Source: an uncultured Gammaproteobacteria bacterium (GTDB lineage Bacteria; Patescibacteriota; Patescibacteriia; Magasanikbacterales; GWA2-37-8). Taken from it: a stretch of DNA of 64,000 bases. Location of the stretch: contig CAYOXC010000002.1 in assembly GCA_964407865.1 (NCBI GenBank), positions 120,646 through 184,645 of the forward strand, in the 5' to 3' direction. The notes under the pieces were generated by a model, which did not search any database, had not been told where the DNA came from, and saw nothing but the letters and a program-made list of their open reading frames with translations. Below, in pieces: positions 1 through 46,380 of this stretch; position 1 is the first letter of the stretch, and every line of letters starts with the position of its first letter. A program made the translations under genes and the position numbers.

Positions 1-45
1 GAATAAGAACAAAATCGCTCCTTGAAAAAAGAAAGGAGTATTACA

Positions 46-2118
46 ATGAAACAAGGAGGTCCGGTAATGGACAAAATTGAATTGGGAGGAAAGTCGAAAG
101 TTGATCTGTTGGTTCGATATTTGACGAATTTGCCGGGGCCGCTTACTTCCGAAGAGCTGCATCTGATGCGTGGGGCAATAGGTACGGAAGGATGCGCCAG
201 GCTTCATGTTGCGTCGCAAAATGCGGAGAACGTGGGGCGGACGACTGTTCGCTTTTCTTCGATCCCGGGTGATGTTGACGAAGTGTTTCCTAATATTCTT
301 GAAGATCGCGCGGAAGTAACAAGTATCGCAGGTTTTATATTGGGCATGAAGAAGAGCGGTGCTGACTGGGTAATTCTGGAGTCGTTTATTGAGGAGTACT
401 TCGCCAATGGCGGACAGGCAAATTCTCAACTAGTTGAGGATGACACGACCGACAATCAGACCGATGAGAACAGTGAAAAGGAAATCGAATTGAACCCTGA
501 AGATTGTGTTCCGGTGAAAGATGATAATGACGTTGAAACGAGAAAGGAAGTTGAAGAGGGGGTTGAAAAGTTGAACGAACTTTGTCTCGAACTAGAACAA
601 ATCAGATCAATTGTCGCTAGCCACGAACTGGAGTTGAAGCAAGTCAATGACAATCTCGGTTTTCTCACTGAAGCCAAAAAAAATGCGCTTTTTGCCAAAG
701 AAGAGCTAGGGCGCGAGGTTGACGAGCTTACGCATGAAATTATCGAAATCAGAAAGAGTTCTGCCGAACTAAAATCAGAAGTTGCCAAACGCAAAGAAGA
801 GGCGCACGACATTGAACTCGACGCCTTGAACACAGAGCAGGCAGCAGCTGAAAAAATGGCCGAATGCAAGGCTCGCCTTCAGGCAGCTGAGGAGTTGAAC
901 GCGCAAGCTGATCTCTTCCTTAACAAGGCCGAACAACTTGAGGCTGATGCGGCAGAGAAAATGCAGGAGGCTGAGGCGCGAATCGCGACTGCCACGACCG
1001 AGATGGCTGAATTAGAAGCTCACGAAAGAAAGCAGAGCAATGAATCGCTGGCGCTTGTTGCGAAAATGGACGAAATCGGCATTAGCCAGGAGCTTAGAGA
1101 AAAACTGAAGCCTGAAGTGGATGAGGCTGTTCGTTACCAGGCGGCAATTTACACGCTTTCACTGATCAAAGTGAGCGCTGAAAAATTGGCCGGACAAGTT
1201 CGTGACGAGGTGGTAGACCTAGCGGCTGAATGTCGTGTTCTCGGCGAAAGGCGAACCGGGCTCGATGAACAAATTGCCGAGCTATCATCGTCGTGTGATT
1301 CGTTGACAGAAAATGTGCGTGAACTCACGGATCTTCGCAGTAGCCTGAGCGAGGAGATATCTTCGCTTGAAAATGATATTGCTGAAATGGAAAAAAATTT
1401 GGATCAGGCTCGTCAGGAATCGCGGGCAATCAATTCAAATTATCACGATACTCTGGCCAAATACCGCGAAGCCATTGAGGATAAAAATCGGCAGATGGCT
1501 GAGGCTGAGGCTGATTTTCTACGACAGCAGGCAATTCAGCAAGATAAGATCAGCAAGTTTGAGCAAATGACAGCCAGTGTTATCTCCGAGGCGCAGACCA
1601 ATCTGCAAAAAGCCTCAAAAAGCTGTGCTGATCGAGTAGCGGAGCTTGAAGCGCAAGCAGTTAGGGCCAAAGAAAAGGCAGACAGTGAGTCTGCCAGGCT
1701 GAAGCTCATAATCACAGAAGCGGAGACGGCTTTAGACGAAATGCGAGTTAACGCCGAAAACCGCGTCAGAGAGACGCATAATAAGGCGGCTGCTCTAGTT
1801 AACGTGGTTCAAGAAGTTCAGGCGGAAAACCTCTCCAGCTTGCAGGCAAAATTGGAAGAGATGGAGCAGTTCGACAGATTTTTTGATATAGTGATGGTTT
1901 CACTCAAGGAAGCAAAATCCAAAGTTCAGCGTGTTTACGAAGAAAGCGAAGGCTTGAACAAAACCTACCAGTCACTATTTGCCATTCGGATGAAAGAAGC
2001 CGAAGAAATCGACGTTAAAATGAGCCAAGCGTTGGCATTGGTAGAGCAGATTTGCGCTGAACCAATTGTCCAAAAAGACGATGATGCGGCGAAAGAAGAT
2101 CTTAAAAATACCAAGTAA
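46..2118 (+). CDS. Large coiled-coil protein: N-terminal ~130-aa globular domain followed by a ~550-aa Ala/Glu/Lys/Leu-rich coiled coil. Hypothetical.
   Basis: The ORF track gives 22..2118 with a TTG start. In-frame ATGs at 46 and 67 are each preceded by a GGAG/AGGAGG Shine-Dalgarno sequence. The sequence is heptad-like and E/A/K-rich over most of its length. GC is visibly higher than in neighbouring genes. A terminator hairpin follows at 2136-2168. Confidence 0.55.
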   Translation: MKQGGPVMDKIELGGKSKVDLLVRYLTNLPGPLTSEELHLMRGAIGTEGCARLHVASQNAENVGRTTVRFSSIPGDVDEVFPNILEDRAEVTSIAGFILGMKKSGADWVILESFIEEYFANGGQANSQLVEDDTTDNQTDENSEKEIELNPEDCVPVKDDNDVETRKEVEEGVEKLNELCLELEQIRSIVASHELELKQVNDNLGFLTEAKKNALFAKEELGREVDELTHEIIEIRKSSAELKSEVAKRKEEAHDIELDALNTEQAAAEKMAECKARLQAAEELNAQADLFLNKAEQLEADAAEKMQEAEARIATATTEMAELEAHERKQSNESLALVAKMDEIGISQELREKLKPEVDEAVRYQAAIYTLSLIKVSAEKLAGQVRDEVVDLAAECRVLGERRTGLDEQIAELSSSCDSLTENVRELTDLRSSLSEEISSLENDIAEMEKNLDQARQESRAINSNYHDTLAKYREAIEDKNRQMAEAEADFLRQQAIQQDKISKFEQMTASVISEAQTNLQKASKSCADRVAELEAQAVRAKEKADSESARLKLIITEAETALDEMRVNAENRVRETHNKAAALVNVVQEVQAENLSSLQAKLEEMEQFDRFFDIVMVSLKEAKSKVQRVYEESEGLNKTYQSLFAIRMKEAEEIDVKMSQALALVEQICAEPIVQKDDDAAKEDLKNTK

Positions 2119-32748: not shown

Positions 32749-32777
32749 TTGACATTTTGTCTAAAATATGCTATAAA
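32749..32777 (+). promoter_or_regulatory. Sigma70-like promoter (TTGACA-N17-TATAAA) for ORF 32848
   Basis: Hexamers read directly. An AGGAGG Shine-Dalgarno sequence precedes the ATG. Confidence 0.55.
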
Positions 32778-32847
32778 AATATGTTTAGTATCACAAGCAG
32801 GCCAAAGAGGCTCTGCTCATATTTAAAAAGAAAGGAGGCAAAAAGGC

Positions 32848-33258
32848 ATGTCCTTGAAAATTCCGAATTTGCCGAATAATGTTTTGCAAGCACATTTCAA
32901 ACGGATACGTCCGGTGATGCGTTTTTCCAAAACAGAAAAAGGACTGGTGCCTTGTGATTATGGTGAGCTGTATTTTCTTCGGGTAGAAAGCCCGGATGAG
33001 ATGTACAATGTGACTCCCCGTATCGGTAATCGCGCTTTAAAAGTGCGAAAGATTGCCGAAATTCGCACCTACCATTACTGGGTTTCAAATATCCCAGAAA
33101 TCAAGCCAACCTGCGCCGAAGTGTACGGCCAGATCCCCGCCGATTATCTTGGTCGCGTTATTGCCTTTGAGGTAAGGACTGGTGTCCATCAGGGTAATAT
33201 CGAAGGCAACTTTCTGCATACGACCACAATTCTTTACGAGCGTTTCAAGCGCCCGTAG
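32848..33258 (+). CDS. GC-elevated orphan protein (136 aa), hypothetical
   Basis: AGGAGG Shine-Dalgarno sequence. GC is about 50% against a ~37% host. A terminator lies at 33287-33310. No family recognised. Confidence 0.55.
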   Translation: MSLKIPNLPNNVLQAHFKRIRPVMRFSKTEKGLVPCDYGELYFLRVESPDEMYNVTPRIGNRALKVRKIAEIRTYHYWVSNIPEIKPTCAEVYGQIPADYLGRVIAFEVRTGVHQGNIEGNFLHTTTILYERFKRP

Positions 33259-33286
33259 AGCGCCACATCGTCAGTTTTTTTCTCCT

Positions 33287-33310
33287 ACCCGGTCATTCGA
33301 TCGGGTTTTA
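33287..33310 (+). terminator. Intrinsic terminator (acccggtc attc gatcgggt + TTTT)
   Basis: Read directly. Confidence 0.5.
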
Positions 33311-33350
33311 TATTTATTTGGGCATTCAATGTGGTATAATCAAAGTCAGT

Positions 33351-35471
33351 ATGGACATAAATACGCCGATAATAAAATTGAGTAGAGTGGGCGCCACAAC
33401 CGCCAAAAATCTAACCCGCCTTAATATTTTAACAGCGCAAGATTTGTTATATTGGTTTCCGTCTCGCTATGAAGATTTTCGTAATATTGTTCCGATCAGT
33501 TCTCTCAAAGACGAAATGTCTGTCACAGTGCGTGGTAAGTTGGAGTTAATAGCAAACAAGCGCTCATTTAGGCGTCGTAAAATTATAACTGAAGCATTGG
33601 TTTCTGATGAAAGCGGTAGCATTCGCGTGGTTTGGTTTAATCAGCCGTTTATAGCAAAAATGTTAAAACCAGGCGACAATATATTTTTGTCTGGTAAAGT
33701 TAAATCAGACATGATAGGGGTGGAATTCATAAGTCCGACATATGAAAAAGATATCAGTGGAGAAACAGCCCATACAGCGCGGTTAGTGCCTATATATCCT
33801 GTAACTCATGGGATAACACAAAAGCAGATGCGTTTTTTGATAAAGCAAATTTTACCTTTAAGTGATAAAATTTTAGAATGGCTACCTGAAAAAATACTTG
33901 AGAAATATGACCTGATGCCTATTGCCGATGCCTTGAAAGGAATCCATTTTCCTTCAGAAGAAAATGAGCTTAAAGCATCAACAGAAAGAATTAAATTTGA
34001 CGAATTATTTTTAGTTCAACTACGAGCTGAGCGCATTCGATTGGGACGAAAAAGTTTGCGCGCGCCAAACATTATTTTTAAGGAAGAGAAGATAAAAGAA
34101 TTTGTTTCAGCATTGCCTTTTTCTTTGACTCGGGCGCAAAAAATTTCTGCCTGGGAGATACTCAAAGATTTAGAAAAAAATATACCAATGAACCGTCTGC
34201 TGTCAGGTGATGTTGGGTCAGGTAAAACAGTTGTAGCGGCGATTGCTCTATACAATACAGTTTTGAATAATTATCAAGCAGTATTAATGGCGCCGACGGA
34301 GATATTAGCAAGACAACATTTTGACTCTTTATGTAATTTTTTTGAAGGCAATTTAAAAATAGCACTACTAACGAGAAGTCAGCGCGTATTTGCGGTCAAA
34401 AAAGAAAGTATAAAATTTGAGTTAAGCAAGAAAGAAATAGAAAAACAAATTTTTGACGGTGAGGTTGATATTGTAGTGGGCACGCATGCTTTGTTATCAG
34501 AAAAAATAAAATTCAGTGACGTTGGTTTGGTTGTTGTTGATGAACAGCATCGGTTTGGTGTAGGGCAAAGAAAAGCTATTAAAGACAAAACAAACGATAT
34601 TTCAGCTCATTATTTAAGCATGACTGCTACGCCAATACCGAGATCGTTTGCCTTAATGATTTATGGCGATTTGGATATTTCCATATTAAACGAGGCTCCA
34701 CCTGGCAGAAAGCCGGTTTTAACCAGATTGGTTGAGTCAAAAAATCGCGACAAGGCATATCAGTTTATAGAAAACCAGGTTTTAAACGGCAGACAGGTGT
34801 TTGTGGTTTGCCCTTTGATTGAAAAATCTAAAGAAAAGACGACAAAAGACGAAATTGAAATCATTAATTACAAAGGTTATCCTTCTATTTTAGAGAAGAA
34901 AAGTGTAACCAGCGAATTTGAAAAATTATCAAAAAATATTTTTCCTAATTTACGATTAGATTTTTTACATGGAAAAATGAAGCCAGCTGACAAAGAAAAA
35001 GTAGTTGATAAATTTAAAAAAGGAAAAACGGACTTATTAATTTCTACCACAGTAATTGAAGTTGGTGTGGATATCCCAAATGCATCAGTTATGATGATAG
35101 AAGATGCAGAGCGATTTGGTTTGGCCCAACTTCATCAATTGCGTGGCCGGGTTGGCCGTTCCATCCATCAGTCATATTGCTTTGTTTTTACTGGAAGTGA
35201 TTCAGATAAATCGCTTTCTCGTTTAAAATATTTTGAAAATATTAGCGATGGTTATAAGTTGGCGGAAAAAGATCTGGAAACACGTGGTCCGGGCGAAGTT
35301 TATGGTGTTGTTCAGAGCGGTATGATGAATTTTAGGTTGGCTAGATTGACAGACAGAGAAATCATTAAAAAAGCGCGGCAAGCAGCTGAATCAATCGGCT
35401 CAACAATTGATCAATATCCAAAACTTGAAGAAAAGGTTGCTGATTGGGAAAAATTGATACATTTAGAATAA
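33351..35471 (+). CDS. recG: ATP-dependent DNA helicase RecG
   Basis: Wedge/OB N-terminal domain. Helicase motifs GDVGSGKT and DEQHRFG. Confidence 0.9.
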   Translation: MDINTPIIKLSRVGATTAKNLTRLNILTAQDLLYWFPSRYEDFRNIVPISSLKDEMSVTVRGKLELIANKRSFRRRKIITEALVSDESGSIRVVWFNQPFIAKMLKPGDNIFLSGKVKSDMIGVEFISPTYEKDISGETAHTARLVPIYPVTHGITQKQMRFLIKQILPLSDKILEWLPEKILEKYDLMPIADALKGIHFPSEENELKASTERIKFDELFLVQLRAERIRLGRKSLRAPNIIFKEEKIKEFVSALPFSLTRAQKISAWEILKDLEKNIPMNRLLSGDVGSGKTVVAAIALYNTVLNNYQAVLMAPTEILARQHFDSLCNFFEGNLKIALLTRSQRVFAVKKESIKFELSKKEIEKQIFDGEVDIVVGTHALLSEKIKFSDVGLVVVDEQHRFGVGQRKAIKDKTNDISAHYLSMTATPIPRSFALMIYGDLDISILNEAPPGRKPVLTRLVESKNRDKAYQFIENQVLNGRQVFVVCPLIEKSKEKTTKDEIEIINYKGYPSILEKKSVTSEFEKLSKNIFPNLRLDFLHGKMKPADKEKVVDKFKKGKTDLLISTTVIEVGVDIPNASVMMIEDAERFGLAQLHQLRGRVGRSIHQSYCFVFTGSDSDKSLSRLKYFENISDGYKLAEKDLETRGPGEVYGVVQSGMMNFRLARLTDREIIKKARQAAESIGSTIDQYPKLEEKVADWEKLIHLE

Positions 35472-35581
35472 TTACATCTTGACTTTTCGATGTTTTTGTG
35501 ATATCCTCCCGGTTGTCTGTTTTGGAAGTTAAACTTCTAAAACAGGGGGTCCATTTACCAACCAAGGAAGGAAAAAATGAG

Positions 35582-35983
35582 ATGAAGAAACAAGCAGTTG
35601 CGATTGCAAGTCCGGAAAGAGACAGGATTCGCGTGTTGGTCAGAAGTGGCAATGAACCGCATCGGTCGTTTTACCTCACGGTCATGCACCTCGGGCTCAA
35701 CGGCAAGAGCGTCAGGCTTTTTGGCCGTCCGGGTCAGGATATGACCGACCGGACTTTCGAGGCCGAGGAAGTGGTTTTCAGGAGGGAAGAAGACTTGGAG
35801 CACTTCGTGCGTTTTGCGGCAGATTCCCTGCTCTCGCGCCGAAAGCGCTTCGTCTGGGATCCTTTCGGTGAAGAGGATGACTCTGTGATCGACGACACCG
35901 CCGGTCCGCTTCGTCAGAAGATCTGGAAGTGTTTCACTTCGCATCCGTCGATCAAGATTGACGGCGAGATTTTCAAGCGCTAA
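35582..35983 (+). CDS. GC-rich orphan protein (133 aa), hypothetical
   Basis: ATG at 35582 with an AGGAAGGA Shine-Dalgarno sequence. GC is about 55%. TTGACT lies at 35479. A terminator lies at 36013-36044. No family recognised. A long antisense ORF here (35555..35944) is taken as a GC artefact. Confidence 0.5.
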   Translation: MKKQAVAIASPERDRIRVLVRSGNEPHRSFYLTVMHLGLNGKSVRLFGRPGQDMTDRTFEAEEVVFRREEDLEHFVRFAADSLLSRRKRFVWDPFGEEDDSVIDDTAGPLRQKIWKCFTSHPSIKIDGEIFKR

Positions 35984-36012
35984 ACCCTTCGTCCTTGCAC
36001 CTTATTAAACAG

Positions 36013-36044
36013 GCCGCCCAAGACAATTGTCAGGGGCGGCTTTA
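36013..36044. terminator. Bidirectional hairpin gccgccc aa gacaattgtc ag gggcggc + T-run
   Basis: Read directly. Confidence 0.55.
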
Positions 36045-36071
36045 TTATTTAAAAAATAATTTTATAACAAA

Positions 36072-37415
36072 TTAAGTATGCTTGATAATATCTTGAATAT
36101 TTTTTATATCTAAAATTTTTAAATTTTTTACAGATATAGCCGAATGTTTTTTGCCAAGATTGGCCAGGGCGCGTTTGAGTCCGAGTTGTTCGCATTCTTT
36201 GAGGCGCCTTTCAGTTTGCGAAACTGGTCGAATTTCGCCAGACAAGCCAACTTCGCCAAAGGCAGCCATATCATTACCCAAAGCCTTGTCTTTGTAGGCA
36301 CTGGCAATAGCGAGTGCTACAGCTAAATCCGCGGCTGGCTCATCAGCTGTAAGTCCGCCGACAATGTTTAGGTGGACATCATATTGTTCCAAACGCAAGC
36401 CGGCTCTTTTTTGCAACACGGCAATTAAAACATGGAGTCGGTTAAGATCGAATCCGCTTGCTTTGCGCACGGGATAGCCGAATGAAGTTTTGTTAACTAA
36501 AGCCTGAACTTCAACTAGAATTGGCCTGGTACCCTCCATCAGGCAGGCAACAACATTGCCTGGAGCATTTTCCGCTCGCTCGTTTAAAAAGGCGGCTGAA
36601 GGATTTTTTACTTCTTCTAATCCGGTTTCTTCCATAGCAAATACACCAACTTCATCTGTTGAGCCAAAACGATTTTTTGCCGCGCGTAAAATTCTAAATT
36701 GGTGGAAACGATCGCCTTCAAGATAGAGGACTGTATCCACTAAATGCTCGAGCGCTTTTGGACCGGCTACTGTGCCTTCTTTTGTAACTTGTCCGATTAG
36801 TACTATGGTAAGGCGTTCGGCTTTTGAAAGTTCCATTAGTTTTACGGTGCAGGTACGAACTTGCGATAGGTTGCCCGCTTCACCTGTTGCTTCATCTGAG
36901 TAAACAGTTTGGACTGAATCAATTATAGTTAAAGCAGGTTTTTCTTTTTTTATAGTGGCAATAATTGTATCAATATTTGATTCGTTAGCTACTTTTAAAT
37001 TTTTGACTGTTATTTTTAGCCGATCAGAACGCATCTTTATTTGTTCGGTTGATTCTTCACCGGAAATATAAAGAGTATTAGGGAGAATTGATGCTAGCTG
37101 AAGTGCCAGGGTTGATTTACCTATTCCCGGTTCACCGCCAAGAAGAATGAGAGAGCCGGGCACGAGTCCGCCGCCGAGCACGCGGTCAAATTCGCCAATA
37201 TTGGTTCTTGTTCGCGTTACGTTTTCGCTTTTTATATCTGATAAATTCGATAATTTTGTTGGCGCGTATTCGTTGGGTTCGTTTTGCTCCTTGCTAATTG
37301 TTTTTTGTTCTTTATCTATCGTGCCCCAGTGTCCACATTCTAAACAACGCCCAACCCACTTTTGAAATTGTGCTCCACAGTTGTTACAGGAGAAAATTAT
37401 TGAGTTATGTTTCAT
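36072..37415 (-). CDS. radA: DNA repair protein RadA/Sms
   Basis: N-terminal C4 zinc finger CNNCG...CLECG. RecA-like GGEPGIGKST. Lon-like C-terminal domain. Confidence 0.92.
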   Translation of the reverse strand: MKHNSIIFSCNNCGAQFQKWVGRCLECGHWGTIDKEQKTISKEQNEPNEYAPTKLSNLSDIKSENVTRTRTNIGEFDRVLGGGLVPGSLILLGGEPGIGKSTLALQLASILPNTLYISGEESTEQIKMRSDRLKITVKNLKVANESNIDTIIATIKKEKPALTIIDSVQTVYSDEATGEAGNLSQVRTCTVKLMELSKAERLTIVLIGQVTKEGTVAGPKALEHLVDTVLYLEGDRFHQFRILRAAKNRFGSTDEVGVFAMEETGLEEVKNPSAAFLNERAENAPGNVVACLMEGTRPILVEVQALVNKTSFGYPVRKASGFDLNRLHVLIAVLQKRAGLRLEQYDVHLNIVGGLTADEPAADLAVALAIASAYKDKALGNDMAAFGEVGLSGEIRPVSQTERRLKECEQLGLKRALANLGKKHSAISVKNLKILDIKNIQDIIKHT

Positions 37416-46033: not shown

Positions 46034-46062
46034 TTGACAAATTAGCCTTTTTTTGCTATATT
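46034..46062 (+). promoter_or_regulatory. Near-consensus sigma70 promoter (TTGACA-N17-TATATT)
   Basis: Read directly. Confidence 0.55.
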
Positions 46063-46121
46063 TTAAACCGACAATGGACCACCAAAAGGCGGTTCAAAGA
46101 CCCAAGAGGAGGGGAGAGAGA

Positions 46122-46325
46122 ATGAAGAAAGCAGAAAAAAAAGACTTAGAGGTTTACGAACCAAGGCGCAAAGGCACCTATCGACAACGTCGGCAGAAGC
46201 CGGCAGACCGCCCGTCCTGGCACCCGGAGATGTTGGACACTTTCGAGAGTTCGAATTACTACGACGAGCCGGAGCTCAGCCAGGAGGAGATTCGCCTCAT
46301 CCGGCGGATCAACGACGCCTCTTAG
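46122..46325 (+). CDS. GC-rich small orphan protein (67 aa; alternative start at 46074 gives 83 aa), hypothetical
   Basis: AGGAGG sits 6 nt before the ATG at 46122. GC is about 55-60%. Two terminators follow. Confidence 0.45.
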   Translation: MKKAEKKDLEVYEPRRKGTYRQRRQKPADRPSWHPEMLDTFESSNYYDEPELSQEEIRLIRRINDAS

Positions 46326-46357
46326 TCGCCCTACGACTTCTTAGTTCTTTATGACTT

Positions 46358-46380
46358 GAGCCGCCTTTTTAAGGCGGCTC
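46358..46380 (+). terminator. Perfect 10-bp hairpin gagccgcctt ttt aaggcggctc
   Basis: Read directly. Confidence 0.55.

What the first reader, a model, noticed from the sequence alone, without database searches (positions are those of the whole stretch)
35472..36044. GC-rich 133-aa orphan gene between recG and radA
ORF 35582-35983 has about 55% GC, an AGGAAGGA Shine-Dalgarno sequence, an upstream TTGACT element and a downstream bidirectional hairpin terminator. It contains no recognisable motif. It is compositionally similar to the ORFs at 32848 and 46122. Together these may represent a set of acquired small proteins.
Basis: partly seen in the sequence, partly recalled or inferred. Interest (0 to 1): 0.55.

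Follow-up and report, generated by a model that had tools for sequence, protein, structure and literature searches.

The report
GC-rich orphan gene between recG and radA
This is a real small protein gene of unknown function, found only in one subgroup of the uncultured Magasanikbacteria, and its GC-richness lies in silent codon positions and is kept up in every relative, so it is not the mark of a recent foreign acquisition.

Summary
ORF 35582-35983 (133 aa) lies between recG and radA in a 39%-GC Candidatus Magasanikbacteria (Patescibacteria) genome. It has 54.5% GC, a TTGACT-17-(TG)TATCCT promoter, a Shine-Dalgarno sequence and a bidirectional terminator.

It is protein-coding. Six ortholog pairs give dN/dS of 0.17-0.54 in the sense frame. 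The open antisense frame gives about 1.

The family is very small: about 15 sequences among billions. All twelve members whose neighbours could be seen lie beside recG, and radA follows in eight. No Pfam, NCBIfam, PHROG, PADLOC, PDB, phage or plasmid relative was found.

AlphaFold (pLDDT 80) predicts a small six-stranded beta-domain, a helical hairpin and a C-terminal strand. No fold match is significant.

The GC excess is synonymous: GC3 is 0.66 against 0.31 in the flanking genes (z = 7.7). It recurs in 10 of 10 orthologous loci (mean +0.24), although synonymous sites are saturated and diverge at the same rate as the flanks. "Recently acquired" is therefore not supported. The gene was inherited vertically since the base of the clade, and its GC3 is actively maintained.

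Amino-acid bias, an antisense gene, specific mRNA structure and genomic position were all tested as causes and rejected.

Function is unknown. My best guess is a strongly expressed, basic binding protein made from a stabilised mRNA.

The parts
33318..35471 (+). recG (context). Its stop codon lies 7 nt before the -35 box of the orphan gene.
   Evidence: Pfam RecG_wedge, DEAD, Helicase_C and RecG_dom3_C.
35479..35507 (+). Sigma-70-type promoter with an extended -10: TTGACT (35479-35484), a 17-nt spacer ending in TG (35499-35500), and TATCCT (35502-35507).
   Evidence: Consensus scan. TTGAC and the TG-n-TAT part of the -10 box are invariant in 7 aligned orthologous loci. The same architecture is seen in 9 of 10 loci.
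35514..35548 (+). Stem-loop of about 14 bp near the 5' end of the predicted leader. The transcription start is inferred at about 35514.
   Evidence: The 68-nt leader has MFE -18.6 kcal/mol, z = -2.3. A 10-14-bp hairpin sits at the same place in every ortholog tested, with different sequences. GCGGAUGKUCCGC occurs in L001, L007, L085, L088 and L091.
35564..35572 (+). Shine-Dalgarno sequence AAGGAAGGA, 9 nt upstream of the ATG.
   Evidence: Read directly from the sequence. Purine-rich, GGAG-type sequences lie at the same distance in the orthologs.
35582..35983 (+). Coding sequence of the orphan protein (133 aa). The predicted structure is a small six-stranded beta-domain (residues 15-66), a helical hairpin (69-120) and a C-terminal strand in the HPxIKVD motif.
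   Evidence: dN/dS of 0.17-0.54 in six independent pairs. Family alignment with invariant G23, G41, G48, R49, D56 and D71. AlphaFold pLDDT 80.5 and pTM 0.68. GC3 0.66.
35555..35944 (-). Antisense ORF of 129 aa that is codon-for-codon complementary to the gene. It is a by-product of the scarcity of A-ending codons, not a gene.
   Evidence: dN/dS of 0.7-1.2 in all pairs, and a stop codon in L001. Its frame alignment with the sense codons follows from the coordinates.
36011..36050 (.). Bidirectional intrinsic terminator shared with the convergent radA: GGCCGCCC...GGGCGGCU followed by a T-run.
   Evidence: MFE -22.2 kcal/mol, z = -3.2. Palindrome at 36006-36047. The hairpin core is conserved in most orthologs. 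A hairpin with a similar core is the only thing between recG and radA in relatives that lack the gene.
36072..37415 (-). radA/sms (context), convergent with the orphan gene.
   Evidence: Pfam zinc ribbon, KaiC/AAA_25 ATPase and Lon_C/ChlI. It is 58-82% identical to Magasanikbacteria RadA.

Best explanation
**What it is (shown)**
This is a genuine monocistronic gene restricted to one sub-clade of Candidatus Magasanikbacteria. The whole unit (promoter, leader, coding sequence) lies between the recG stop codon and a bidirectional terminator. In relatives that lack the gene, such a terminator is the only thing between recG and radA.

The gene has been inherited vertically with its flanks. It evolves 2-6 times faster than they do at the protein level, but remains under purifying selection.

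Its high GC lies at synonymous sites and is a standing property of the family. A continuing force keeps GC3 near 0.55-0.87 whatever the host GC3 is (0.31-0.56).

**How it most likely works (inferred)**
The product is a soluble, mildly basic protein of 100-165 aa. Its conserved core is a small beta-domain that may be SH3/Tudor-like, plus a C-terminal strand. It most likely acts by binding a nucleic acid or a partner protein. No catalytic activity is suggested.

Five features together look like a unit built for high output from a long-lived mRNA:
- a strong promoter with a consensus-like -35 (TTGAC) and an extended -10;
- a stem-loop near the 5' end of the leader;
- a strong Shine-Dalgarno sequence;
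- a GC-rich coding body poor in A-ending codons;
- a tight 3' hairpin.

On this reading, selection on the GC content of the mRNA as a whole keeps GC3 high. A second small gene in the window (46122-46325), and to a lesser degree a third (32848-33258), are built the same way.

The confidence given (0.55) is for the whole statement. The shown part (a real, vertically inherited, clade-restricted gene with maintained synonymous GC) I put at about 0.9. The inferred part (a binding protein made from a high-output, stabilised mRNA) I put at about 0.3.
For: **Coding**
- Sense dN/dS is 0.22, 0.17, 0.54, 0.25, 0.19 and 0.34 in six pairs. A seventh pair was too saturated to score. The antisense frame gives 0.7-1.2.

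**Restricted family with fixed synteny**
- A word-index search of 5.8 billion protein clusters found 2 proteins.
- An exhaustive HMMER search of 1.84 billion representatives found 10.
- A profile search found 7.
- All twelve family loci with visible neighbours have the gene just downstream of recG, and radA follows in the eight that reach that far.
- Sister lineages such as L039 (RadA 75% identical) and L011 have only a terminator between recG and radA.

**Vertical inheritance**
- For L008 vs L090, dS is 0.69 for the gene, 0.58 for radA and 0.84 for recG.

**The GC excess is synonymous and persistent**
- In the window, GC3 is 0.66 against 0.31, z = 7.7.
- In 10 of 10 loci the gene exceeds its flanks. 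The mean difference is +0.24, the range +0.05 to +0.37, and Wilcoxon p = 0.002.
- Both C- and G-ending codons rise across nearly all amino acids.
- EF-Tu and ribosomal protein genes have GC3 of only 0.28-0.39, so this is not the genome's ordinary bias for highly expressed genes.

**Expression signals**
- The promoter is conserved across the aligned loci.
- The leader hairpin is conserved in position while its sequence varies.
- The terminator is conserved.

**Protein**
- AlphaFold pLDDT is 80.5.
- pI is 8.7-9.8 in 11 of 13 members, and GRAVY is about -0.6 in the window protein (-0.27 to -0.76 across members).
- The best local structural hits are small beta-barrels: 53BP1 Tudor, MRG15 chromo, ribosomal proteins, NdhS and a chain of the PafBC-RNA polymerase complex.

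**Same design elsewhere**
- ORF 46122 and its homolog in L089 have GC3 of 0.71 and 0.74 against 0.36-0.45 in the L089 flanks. They have a TTGACA-17-(TG)TATATT promoter, a leader hairpin and a terminator.
Against: - No direct evidence of expression was available: no transcriptome or proteome.
- The coding region does not fold more stably than synonymous-codon shuffles. z runs from -0.5 to +1.3 in five orthologs, with one at -2.9. If selection acts on the mRNA, it acts on bulk GC content and not on a particular structure.
- GC-biased gene conversion could produce the same pattern without any selection on the mRNA.
- In a 39%-GC host these GC-ending codons are the rare ones. That could equally mean slow or conditional translation, the opposite of high output.
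- The transcription start is inferred from the promoter, not measured.
Confidence: 0.55

Rival explanations
1. Recently acquired foreign gene. The GC-rich codon usage would be the unameliorated signature of a GC-richer donor, dropped into a variable spot between recG and radA.
For: - The GC3 outlier is strong (z = 7.7).
- The gene is an orphan with its own promoter and terminator.
- The recG-radA junction varies across Magasanikbacteria. It is empty in some lineages and holds unrelated orphan genes in others.
- A single ancient gain at the base of the clade cannot be excluded.
Against: - All twelve family members whose neighbours could be seen lie beside recG.
- dS of the gene equals dS of its flanks in L008 vs L090.
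- Synonymous sites are saturated between other members (dS at least 1.7), yet GC3 stays above the flanks in 10 of 10 loci. The present composition therefore cannot be a relic.
- No flanking direct repeats and no mobility genes are present.
- No homolog was found in phage, plasmid or IMG/VR collections.
Confidence: 0.08
2. The GC3 excess is a neutral by-product of GC-biased gene conversion. The gene would lie in a recombination hot spot and be exchanged often between related strains, which drives synonymous sites towards G and C without selection on the mRNA or on translation.
For: - Both G- and C-ending codons rise for nearly all amino acids, which fits a force that favours GC as such.
- There is no specific RNA structure.
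- The junction varies in gene content, which implies recombination there.
- The protein evolves fast.
- A link between recombination and GC3 in bacteria has been reported (PMC4450053, found; I saw its title and the start of its abstract but did not read the paper).
Against: - Other genes occupying the same junction in other lineages mostly have host-like GC3.
- The adjacent 3' ends of recG and radA are only slightly GC-enriched at most.
- The synonymous divergence of the gene matches its flanks and shows no sign of separate exchange.
- A 400-bp conversion hot spot with sharp edges that persists across a whole clade would be unusual (my own judgement).
Confidence: 0.2
3. The protein is an accessory factor of RecG or RadA in DNA repair and recombination, for example a small adaptor with a beta-barrel domain that binds a helicase, SSB or branched DNA. 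On this reading its fixed position between the two genes reflects function.
For: - The gene is always found just after recG on the same strand, with no terminator between them, so recG read-through could co-transcribe it.
- It is mildly basic.
- Weak local structural similarity to Tudor-type barrels, and to a chain of the PafBC-RNA polymerase complex.
Against: - Fixed synteny is expected from vertical inheritance alone.
- Most Magasanikbacteria have recG and radA without this gene.
- It has its own strong promoter.
- It shows no detectable similarity to RecG or RadA.
- The structural hits are not significant.
Confidence: 0.12
4. The feature is not a protein gene. It would be a GC-rich structured RNA, or a gene on the opposite strand, in which the 133-codon frame is open only because GC-rich DNA has few stop codons.
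For: - GC-rich islands in AT-rich genomes are often RNA genes (my own knowledge).
- An antisense ORF of 114-178 codons is open in the window and in five orthologs, L005-L009.
Against: - Substitutions concentrate at third codon positions of the sense frame (41, 43 and 69 differences at positions 1, 2 and 3).
- Sense dN/dS is 0.17-0.54, against about 1 for the antisense frame, which also carries a stop codon in L001.
- The window and L001 coding regions align without gaps over 133 codons, and the family shares conserved motifs.
- Rfam gives no hit even at E = 10.
- There is no excess folding energy.
Confidence: 0.02
5. The gene is a solitary toxin, immunity, defence or anti-defence gene under an arms race. 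This would explain its fast evolution, narrow distribution and location in a variable spot.
For: - The protein evolves fast: 17-54% identity, against 75-90% for RadA.
- The junction is variable.
- The protein is small.
Against: - No PADLOC hit in 12 of 13 members, and one weak chance-level match at E = 0.037.
- No PHROG hit of note.
- The unit is monocistronic, with no partner gene.
- All scorable pairs show dN/dS below 1.
- The gene is retained at one locus across the whole clade, not patchily distributed.
Confidence: 0.08

Closest known systems
Taxonomically restricted (orphan) genes of bacteria
   Same: The family has about 15 members, confined to one sub-clade. It has no homolog in any family library. 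The protein is short and evolves fast. The unit is inserted between conserved core genes.
   Different: Bacterial orphans and recently transferred genes are typically more AT-rich than their host (my own knowledge). This one is much more GC-rich at synonymous sites, and it stays so in every lineage.
Small beta-barrel domains of the SH3/Tudor/chromo/KOW type
   Same: AlphaFold predicts six short strands at residues 15-66 with no helix between them. The best local Foldseek alignments are to 53BP1 Tudor, MRG15 chromo, ribosomal proteins, NdhS and a chain of the PafBC-RNA polymerase complex.
   Different: No match is significant (E at least 0.13, probability at most 0.57). No Pfam model of these families hits any member. 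The helical hairpin and the C-terminal HPxIKVD strand have no counterpart in those hits.
mRNAs stabilised by a 5'-terminal stem-loop (for example the E. coli ompA leader and the B. subtilis aprE and ermC leaders; my own knowledge)
   Same: A 10-14-bp hairpin lies within a few nucleotides of the predicted 5' end in every ortholog tested. Its sequence varies but its position is conserved. It is paired with a tight 3' terminator hairpin.
   Different: Neither the transcription start nor the mRNA half-life has been measured. The hairpin could instead be an operator for a translational repressor. In five loci it has the fixed sequence GCGGAUGKUCCGC, which suggests recognition and not merely structure.
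ORF 46122-46325 in the same window
   Same: It has a consensus-like -35 box (TTGACA) and an extended -10 promoter, a leader hairpin (z = -3.2), a strong Shine-Dalgarno sequence, GC3 of 0.71 and its own terminator. It has only one homolog in 5.8 billion protein clusters, and that homolog also has a GC3 excess (0.74 against 0.36-0.45).
   Different: The protein is unrelated: 67 aa and highly charged. It lies at a different locus, between the phosphoglucomutase-family gene and the M48 peptidase gene.

Membership tests
Horizontally acquired genomic islet | Composition deviates from the host. | tested here: met
   GC3 is 0.66 against 0.31, z = 7.7.
Horizontally acquired genomic islet | Patchy presence among close relatives, or divergence out of step with the flanking genes. 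| tested here: not met
   The gene lies next to recG in all twelve family loci whose neighbours could be seen. dS is 0.69, against 0.58 and 0.84 for the flanks.
Horizontally acquired genomic islet | Mobility signatures (flanking repeats, integrase or transposase) or homologs on mobile elements. | tested here: not met
   No direct repeats in 35400-36100. No homolog in phage, plasmid or IMG/VR collections.
Horizontally acquired genomic islet | The compositional signal decays with time (amelioration). | tested here: not met
   The GC3 excess is present in 10 of 10 orthologs despite saturated dS.
SH3/Tudor-like small beta-barrel proteins | A compact barrel of five or six strands. | tested here: inconclusive
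   AlphaFold predicts six strands at residues 15-66, with pLDDT of about 80-94 across that stretch. I had no access to the coordinates to verify barrel closure.
SH3/Tudor-like small beta-barrel proteins | A significant structural or sequence match to a member. | tested here: not met
Structured non-coding RNA | A match to a known RNA family, or folding energy beyond that expected from composition. | tested here: not met
   Rfam gives nothing above chance. z against synonymous shuffles is -0.5 to +1.3 in 5 of 6 orthologs.
Overlapping antisense gene | An open antisense frame. | tested here: met
   Window 35555-35944 (-), 129 aa. The frame is also open in L005-L009.
Overlapping antisense gene | Purifying selection in the antisense frame. 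| tested here: not met
   dN/dS is 0.7-1.2, and L001 carries a stop codon.
Toxin-antitoxin or anti-phage defence systems | A match to a known component, or a conserved partner gene. | tested here: not met
   PADLOC gives no hit in 12 of 13 members, and one weak match at E = 0.037. The unit is monocistronic between recG and radA.
Genes using the genome's highly-expressed codon bias | Codon usage like that of the translation-machinery genes of the same genome. | tested here: not met
   EF-Tu has GC3 of 0.39, and the L2, L3, S3 and L6 genes have 0.28-0.33. This gene has 0.66.

The most novel reading that the evidence does not exclude
One Magasanikbacteria clade may carry a class of small, lineage-specific genes built as high-GC3 expression cassettes. 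Each would have a strong extended -10 promoter, a 5' stem-loop, a strong Shine-Dalgarno sequence, a GC-rich coding body and a tight terminator. Candidates in this window are this gene, ORF 46122, perhaps ORF 32848 and the phosphoribosyltransferase-like gene at 60801-61895. On this reading, selection on the mRNA holds synonymous GC content far above the genomic equilibrium for very long periods. That would be a clear natural case of selection on bulk synonymous GC content in a reduced, AT-drifting genome. The product of this gene would be a new small-barrel binding protein specific to these ultra-small bacteria.
Probability: 0.2. Interest if true: 0.65.

Novelty: new variant of a known kind. 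Interest (0 to 1): 0.42.

Why it matters
Compositional outliers are routinely read as horizontal transfer. Here that reading can be tested, and it fails. A fast-evolving orphan gene has kept a synonymous GC excess of 0.05-0.37 over its neighbours in every lineage of a clade, although its silent sites have been replaced many times over.

Some directional force therefore acts on the silent sites of one 400-bp gene in a small genome that is otherwise AT-rich. The candidates are selection on the mRNA and biased gene conversion. With so few confounders, the gene is a convenient natural test case for separating the two.

It also adds a well-defined, structurally predictable protein family, with conserved expression signals, to the large unexplored set of Patescibacteria-specific proteins. 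On present evidence the function is unknown and the family is tiny, so the practical importance is modest.

Tried and rejected
- **Known RNA family or structured RNA:** Rfam gave only chance hits at both the gathering and the E = 10 thresholds.
- **Antisense overlapping gene:** the frame is open but evolves neutrally.
- **Amino-acid bias as the cause of high GC:** rejected, because GC at positions 1 and 2 is normal.
- **Specific mRNA secondary structure as the cause:** rejected by synonymous-shuffle z-scores. An earlier run timed out.
- **Position between the convergent recG and radA as the cause:** other genes in that junction mostly have host-like GC3.
- **The genome's ordinary expression-linked codon bias:** ribosomal protein and EF-Tu genes are AT3-rich.
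- **Family libraries:** nothing in Pfam, NCBIfam, PHROGs or PADLOC for the window protein or for all 13 aligned members.
- **PDB sequence profile search:** only spurious Ran hits at E about 0.07.
- **AlphaFold on the single sequence:** uninformative, pLDDT 43.
- **Distant homology to other junction ORFs, ORF 32848, RecG or RadA:** none by hhalign.
- **Phage, plasmid and viral homologs:** none. The family alignment was too divergent to seed a collection scan.
- **Congruence of pairwise identities with RecG and RadA:** uninformative, because the lineages are nearly equidistant (Spearman rho about 0.2, not significant).
- **The leader hairpin motif GCGGA-N(3-6)-UCCGC upstream of other genes:** among about 1 Mb of fetched loci it lies in a leader only upstream of this gene family. 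Its other occurrences do not sit in promoter-leader contexts.
- **Literature search on Patescibacteria codon usage:** nothing relevant.
Full report
**1. What is in the sequence**

The window has 39.4% GC. Its RadA is 58-82% identical to RadA of Candidatus Magasanikbacteria and Patescibacteria metagenome-assembled genomes. The organism is therefore an uncultured member of the Candidate Phyla Radiation.

Pfam confirms recG at 33318-35471 (+) and radA at 36072-37415 (-). The following elements lie between them:
- a promoter: TTGACT at 35479-35484, a 17-nt spacer ending in TG, and TATCCT at 35502-35507;
- a leader of about 68 nt whose first 35 nt form a 14-bp stem-loop;
- the Shine-Dalgarno sequence AAGGAAGGA at 35564-35572;
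- an ATG at 35582 opening 133 codons, with the stop at 35981-35983;
- a hairpin at 36011-42 followed by a T-run, which also serves the convergent radA.

The 400-nt window 35601-36000 has 55.5% GC, the highest value in the 64 kb.

The 161-aa form called by the databases starts at a GTG inside the promoter. It is probably a mis-called start.

**2. Is it a gene?**

GC-rich DNA keeps frames open by chance. Here the exactly complementary antisense frame is also open (35555-35944, 129 aa), so I tested coding directly.

A syntenic homolog, L001, is 53% identical at the protein level and aligns without gaps over all 133 codons. Differences fall 41, 43 and 69 at codon positions 1, 2 and 3. Nei-Gojobori dN/dS is 0.22 in the sense frame and 1.0 in the complementary antisense frame, which carries a stop codon in L001.

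Five further independent pairs give sense dN/dS of 0.17-0.54 and antisense values of 0.7-1.2. One additional pair was too saturated to score. Rfam finds nothing, even at E = 10.

The sense ORF is a protein gene under purifying selection. The antisense ORF is a by-product. Its stop codons correspond to sense TTA, CTA and TCA, and these are absent from the window gene because A-ending codons are scarce.

**3. Distribution and history**

The searches found very few relatives:
- a word-index search of 5.8 billion protein clusters returned the protein itself and one homolog;
- an exhaustive HMMER scan of 1.84 billion representatives returned ten proteins;
- a profile search returned seven, named only "hypothetical protein" from Patescibacteria genomes where a name was given.

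Translated searches of 80 radA-centred loci from species-representative genomes found the gene only in L005-L009. These are the five genomes whose RadA is 79-82% identical to the window's.

All twelve family loci with visible neighbours have the gene just downstream of recG, and radA follows in the eight that reach that far.

In L039 (RadA 75% identical), L011 and many other Magasanikbacteria, recG and radA are separated by 6-50 bp that hold only a bidirectional terminator. Other lineages carry unrelated genes at that junction. I found no detectable similarity between four of these and this family.

The simplest history is a single gain, or a de novo origin, at the base of one sub-clade. The unit would have entered between the recG stop codon and the pre-existing terminator, and then been inherited vertically.

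The L008-L090 pair supports this. dS is 0.69 for the gene, 0.58 for radA and 0.84 for recG. The protein evolves faster than its neighbours: dN is 0.12 against 0.02 and 0.06, and pairwise identity is 17-54% against 75-90% for RadA.

**4. The compositional anomaly**

The excess is synonymous. In the window gene, GC is 0.57, 0.40 and 0.66 at codon positions 1, 2 and 3. The neighbours have GC3 of 0.25-0.37 and similar GC at positions 1 and 2.

Against 56 other ORFs in the window the gene lies at z = 7.7. GC-ending codons are enriched for almost every amino acid. C and G rise equally, and A is the most depleted base (0.11 against 0.33).

The key result is that this holds for every ortholog with measurable flanks:

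| Locus | Gene GC3 | Flank GC3 |
|---|---|---|
| window | 0.66 | 0.31 |
| L001 | 0.76 | 0.56 |
| L005 | 0.87 | 0.54 |
| L006 | 0.68 | 0.38 |
| L007 | 0.81 | 0.44 |
| L008 | 0.64 | 0.35 |
| L009 | 0.65 | 0.50 |
| L085 | 0.55 | 0.42 |
| L086 | 0.60 | 0.55 |
| L090 | 0.57 | 0.34 |

The mean difference is +0.24 and Wilcoxon p = 0.002.

Synonymous sites are saturated between most members (dS at least 1.7) and turn over at the rate of the flanks. The high GC3 therefore cannot be a fading relic of a foreign donor. A force acting on this gene in every lineage must be renewing it.

I tested five possible causes and rejected each:
- amino-acid bias (GC at positions 1 and 2 is normal);
- an antisense gene (the antisense frame evolves neutrally);
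- a particular mRNA fold (z against synonymous shuffles is -0.5 to +1.3 in five orthologs, with one at -2.9);
- the genomic position (other genes at the same junction mostly have host-like GC3);
- the genome's usual bias in highly expressed genes (EF-Tu has GC3 of 0.39, and the L2, L3, S3 and L6 genes have 0.28-0.33).

Two candidates remain. One is selection for bulk GC content of the message. The other is GC-biased gene conversion, which has been reported in bacteria (PMC4450053, found; I did not read the paper).

**5. Expression signals**

In seven aligned loci the TTGAC of the -35 box and the TG-n-TAT of the extended -10 box are invariant, while the surrounding sequence is not.

Downstream, every ortholog tested has a 10-14-bp hairpin at the same distance from the promoter. 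The sequences differ: the window has GUUUUGGAAGUU/AACUUCUAAAAC, and L008 and L009 have others. Five loci share GCGGAUGKUCCGC. Leader z-scores range from -1.0 to -3.7.

All have a purine-rich, GGAG-type Shine-Dalgarno sequence and a GC-stemmed terminator whose core is conserved in most loci.

From established knowledge of bacterial mRNA decay, a stem-loop at the extreme 5' end and a tight 3' hairpin both prolong mRNA life. I cite that from memory. It was not tested here, and the transcription start is inferred.

**6. The protein**

The family alignment of 13 sequences has a conserved core: D-x-[IV]-x-V ... G ... LNG-x-x-V-x-[VL]-FGR ... D-x-SDR-x-[IV]-E-V ... [IV]-FR-x-x-x-DLE. A variable stretch follows that is absent in the shortest members (99-117 aa). 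The protein ends in HP-x-I-K-[VI]-D-x-x-x-F.

With ten sequences AlphaFold gives pLDDT 80.5 and pTM 0.68. It predicts six short strands (residues 15-66), two long helices (69-90 and 100-120) and a final strand (124-126).

No fold search gives a significant hit. The best local Foldseek alignments to the strand domain are small barrels of the Tudor, chromo and NdhS type and ribosomal proteins, with probabilities of at most 0.57.

The proteins are hydrophilic and mostly basic, with pI of 8.7-9.8 in 11 of 13. By eye there is no long hydrophobic segment, and the protein is hydrophilic overall (GRAVY -0.6). No signal-peptide or transmembrane predictor was run.

My working guess is a small protein that binds a nucleic acid or a partner protein. 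This is inference only.

**7. The other two ORFs**

ORF 46122-46325 (67 aa) is built in the same way:
- a TTGACA-17-(TG)TATATT promoter;
- a leader hairpin (z = -3.2);
- a strong Shine-Dalgarno sequence;
- GC3 of 0.71;
- its own terminator.

It has a single homolog among 5.8 billion clusters, in the same synteny, with GC3 of 0.74 against 0.36-0.45 in the flanks.

ORF 32848-33258 (136 aa) has homologs upstream of recG in L005, L085 and L086, but not in L006-L009. Its GC3 excess is milder, at 0.49-0.62. A profile comparison found no similarity between it and the studied family.

The three are therefore alike in design, and this gene and ORF 32848 co-occur in part. The evidence points to lineage-specific genes with maintained GC3, not to a recently imported set.

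**8. Verdict**

The "acquired" interpretation is not supported as an explanation of the composition.

The finding is a real, previously uncharacterised, clade-restricted small protein family with conserved expression signals and an unusual, actively maintained synonymous GC excess. Its function is unknown.

It is of moderate interest, mainly as a clean natural case for studying what holds silent-site composition away from the genomic equilibrium.

Noticed in passing
window 63270-63320 and 63482-63532: A perfect 51-nt direct repeat covers the 3' end of tRNA-Glu (63214-63286) and its terminator hairpin. The start-to-start spacing is 212 nt, and a 161-nt GC-rich filler lies between the copies. 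Downstream, a very GC-rich minus-strand ORF (63778-63939, GC3 0.93) lies in GC-rich sequence that continues to the end of the window. This looks like an att-type duplication from an integration at the tRNA, or else an assembly artefact.
   Followed up: partly
window 60801-61895 (-), leader 61896-61990: A 364-aa protein resembling phosphoribosyltransferase or PRPP synthetase (Pfam hits below threshold) has GC3 of 0.64. It has its own TTGACA-17-TACAAT promoter. Its leader contains a terminator-like hairpin, ACGGGCGCCAAGGAGGCCCGU followed by U7, just before the Shine-Dalgarno sequence, so it may be an attenuator or riboswitch-like leader. No homolog was found on viral contigs.
   Followed up: partly
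window 46034-46380: ORF 46122-46325 (67 aa, highly charged) has the same design as the studied gene, and GC3 of 0.71. Its only homolog in 5.8 billion clusters, on L089, is in the same synteny and also has a GC3 excess.
   Followed up: partly
window 32751-33306; L005 5087-5515, L085 119-532, L086 104-577: ORF 32848-33258 (136 aa, no family hit) has a TTGACA-17-(TG)TATAAA promoter and its own terminator, just upstream of recG. Homologs lie upstream of recG in L005, L085 and L086 but not in L006-L009. GC3 is 0.49-0.62.
   Followed up: partly
recG-radA junction in L005-L084 (for example L039 7345-7371, L014 7392-7790, L012 7359-7958, L018 7371-9782): The junction between the convergent recG and radA varies in content across Magasanikbacteria. 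Some lineages have only a bidirectional terminator. Others have unrelated orphan ORFs of 85-230 aa. L018, L020 and L031 each carry a protein of about 800 aa; L018's has a weak NUDIX-like N-terminus.
   Followed up: partly
window 22-2118 (+): A 698-aa ORF upstream of EF-Tu has no Pfam hit. Its composition is unusual: GC at position 1 is 0.61, at position 2 is 0.33, and GC3 is 0.47.
   Followed up: no
L001 242-254, L007 7865-7877, L085 2802-2814, L088 1575-1587, L091 25-37: The leader hairpin of the gene family has the fixed sequence GCGGAUGKUCCGC in five loci, with an AUG in the loop region. Among about 1 Mb of fetched loci the motif lies in a leader only upstream of this gene family. This suggests a recognition site, for example for autoregulation.
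   Followed up: partly
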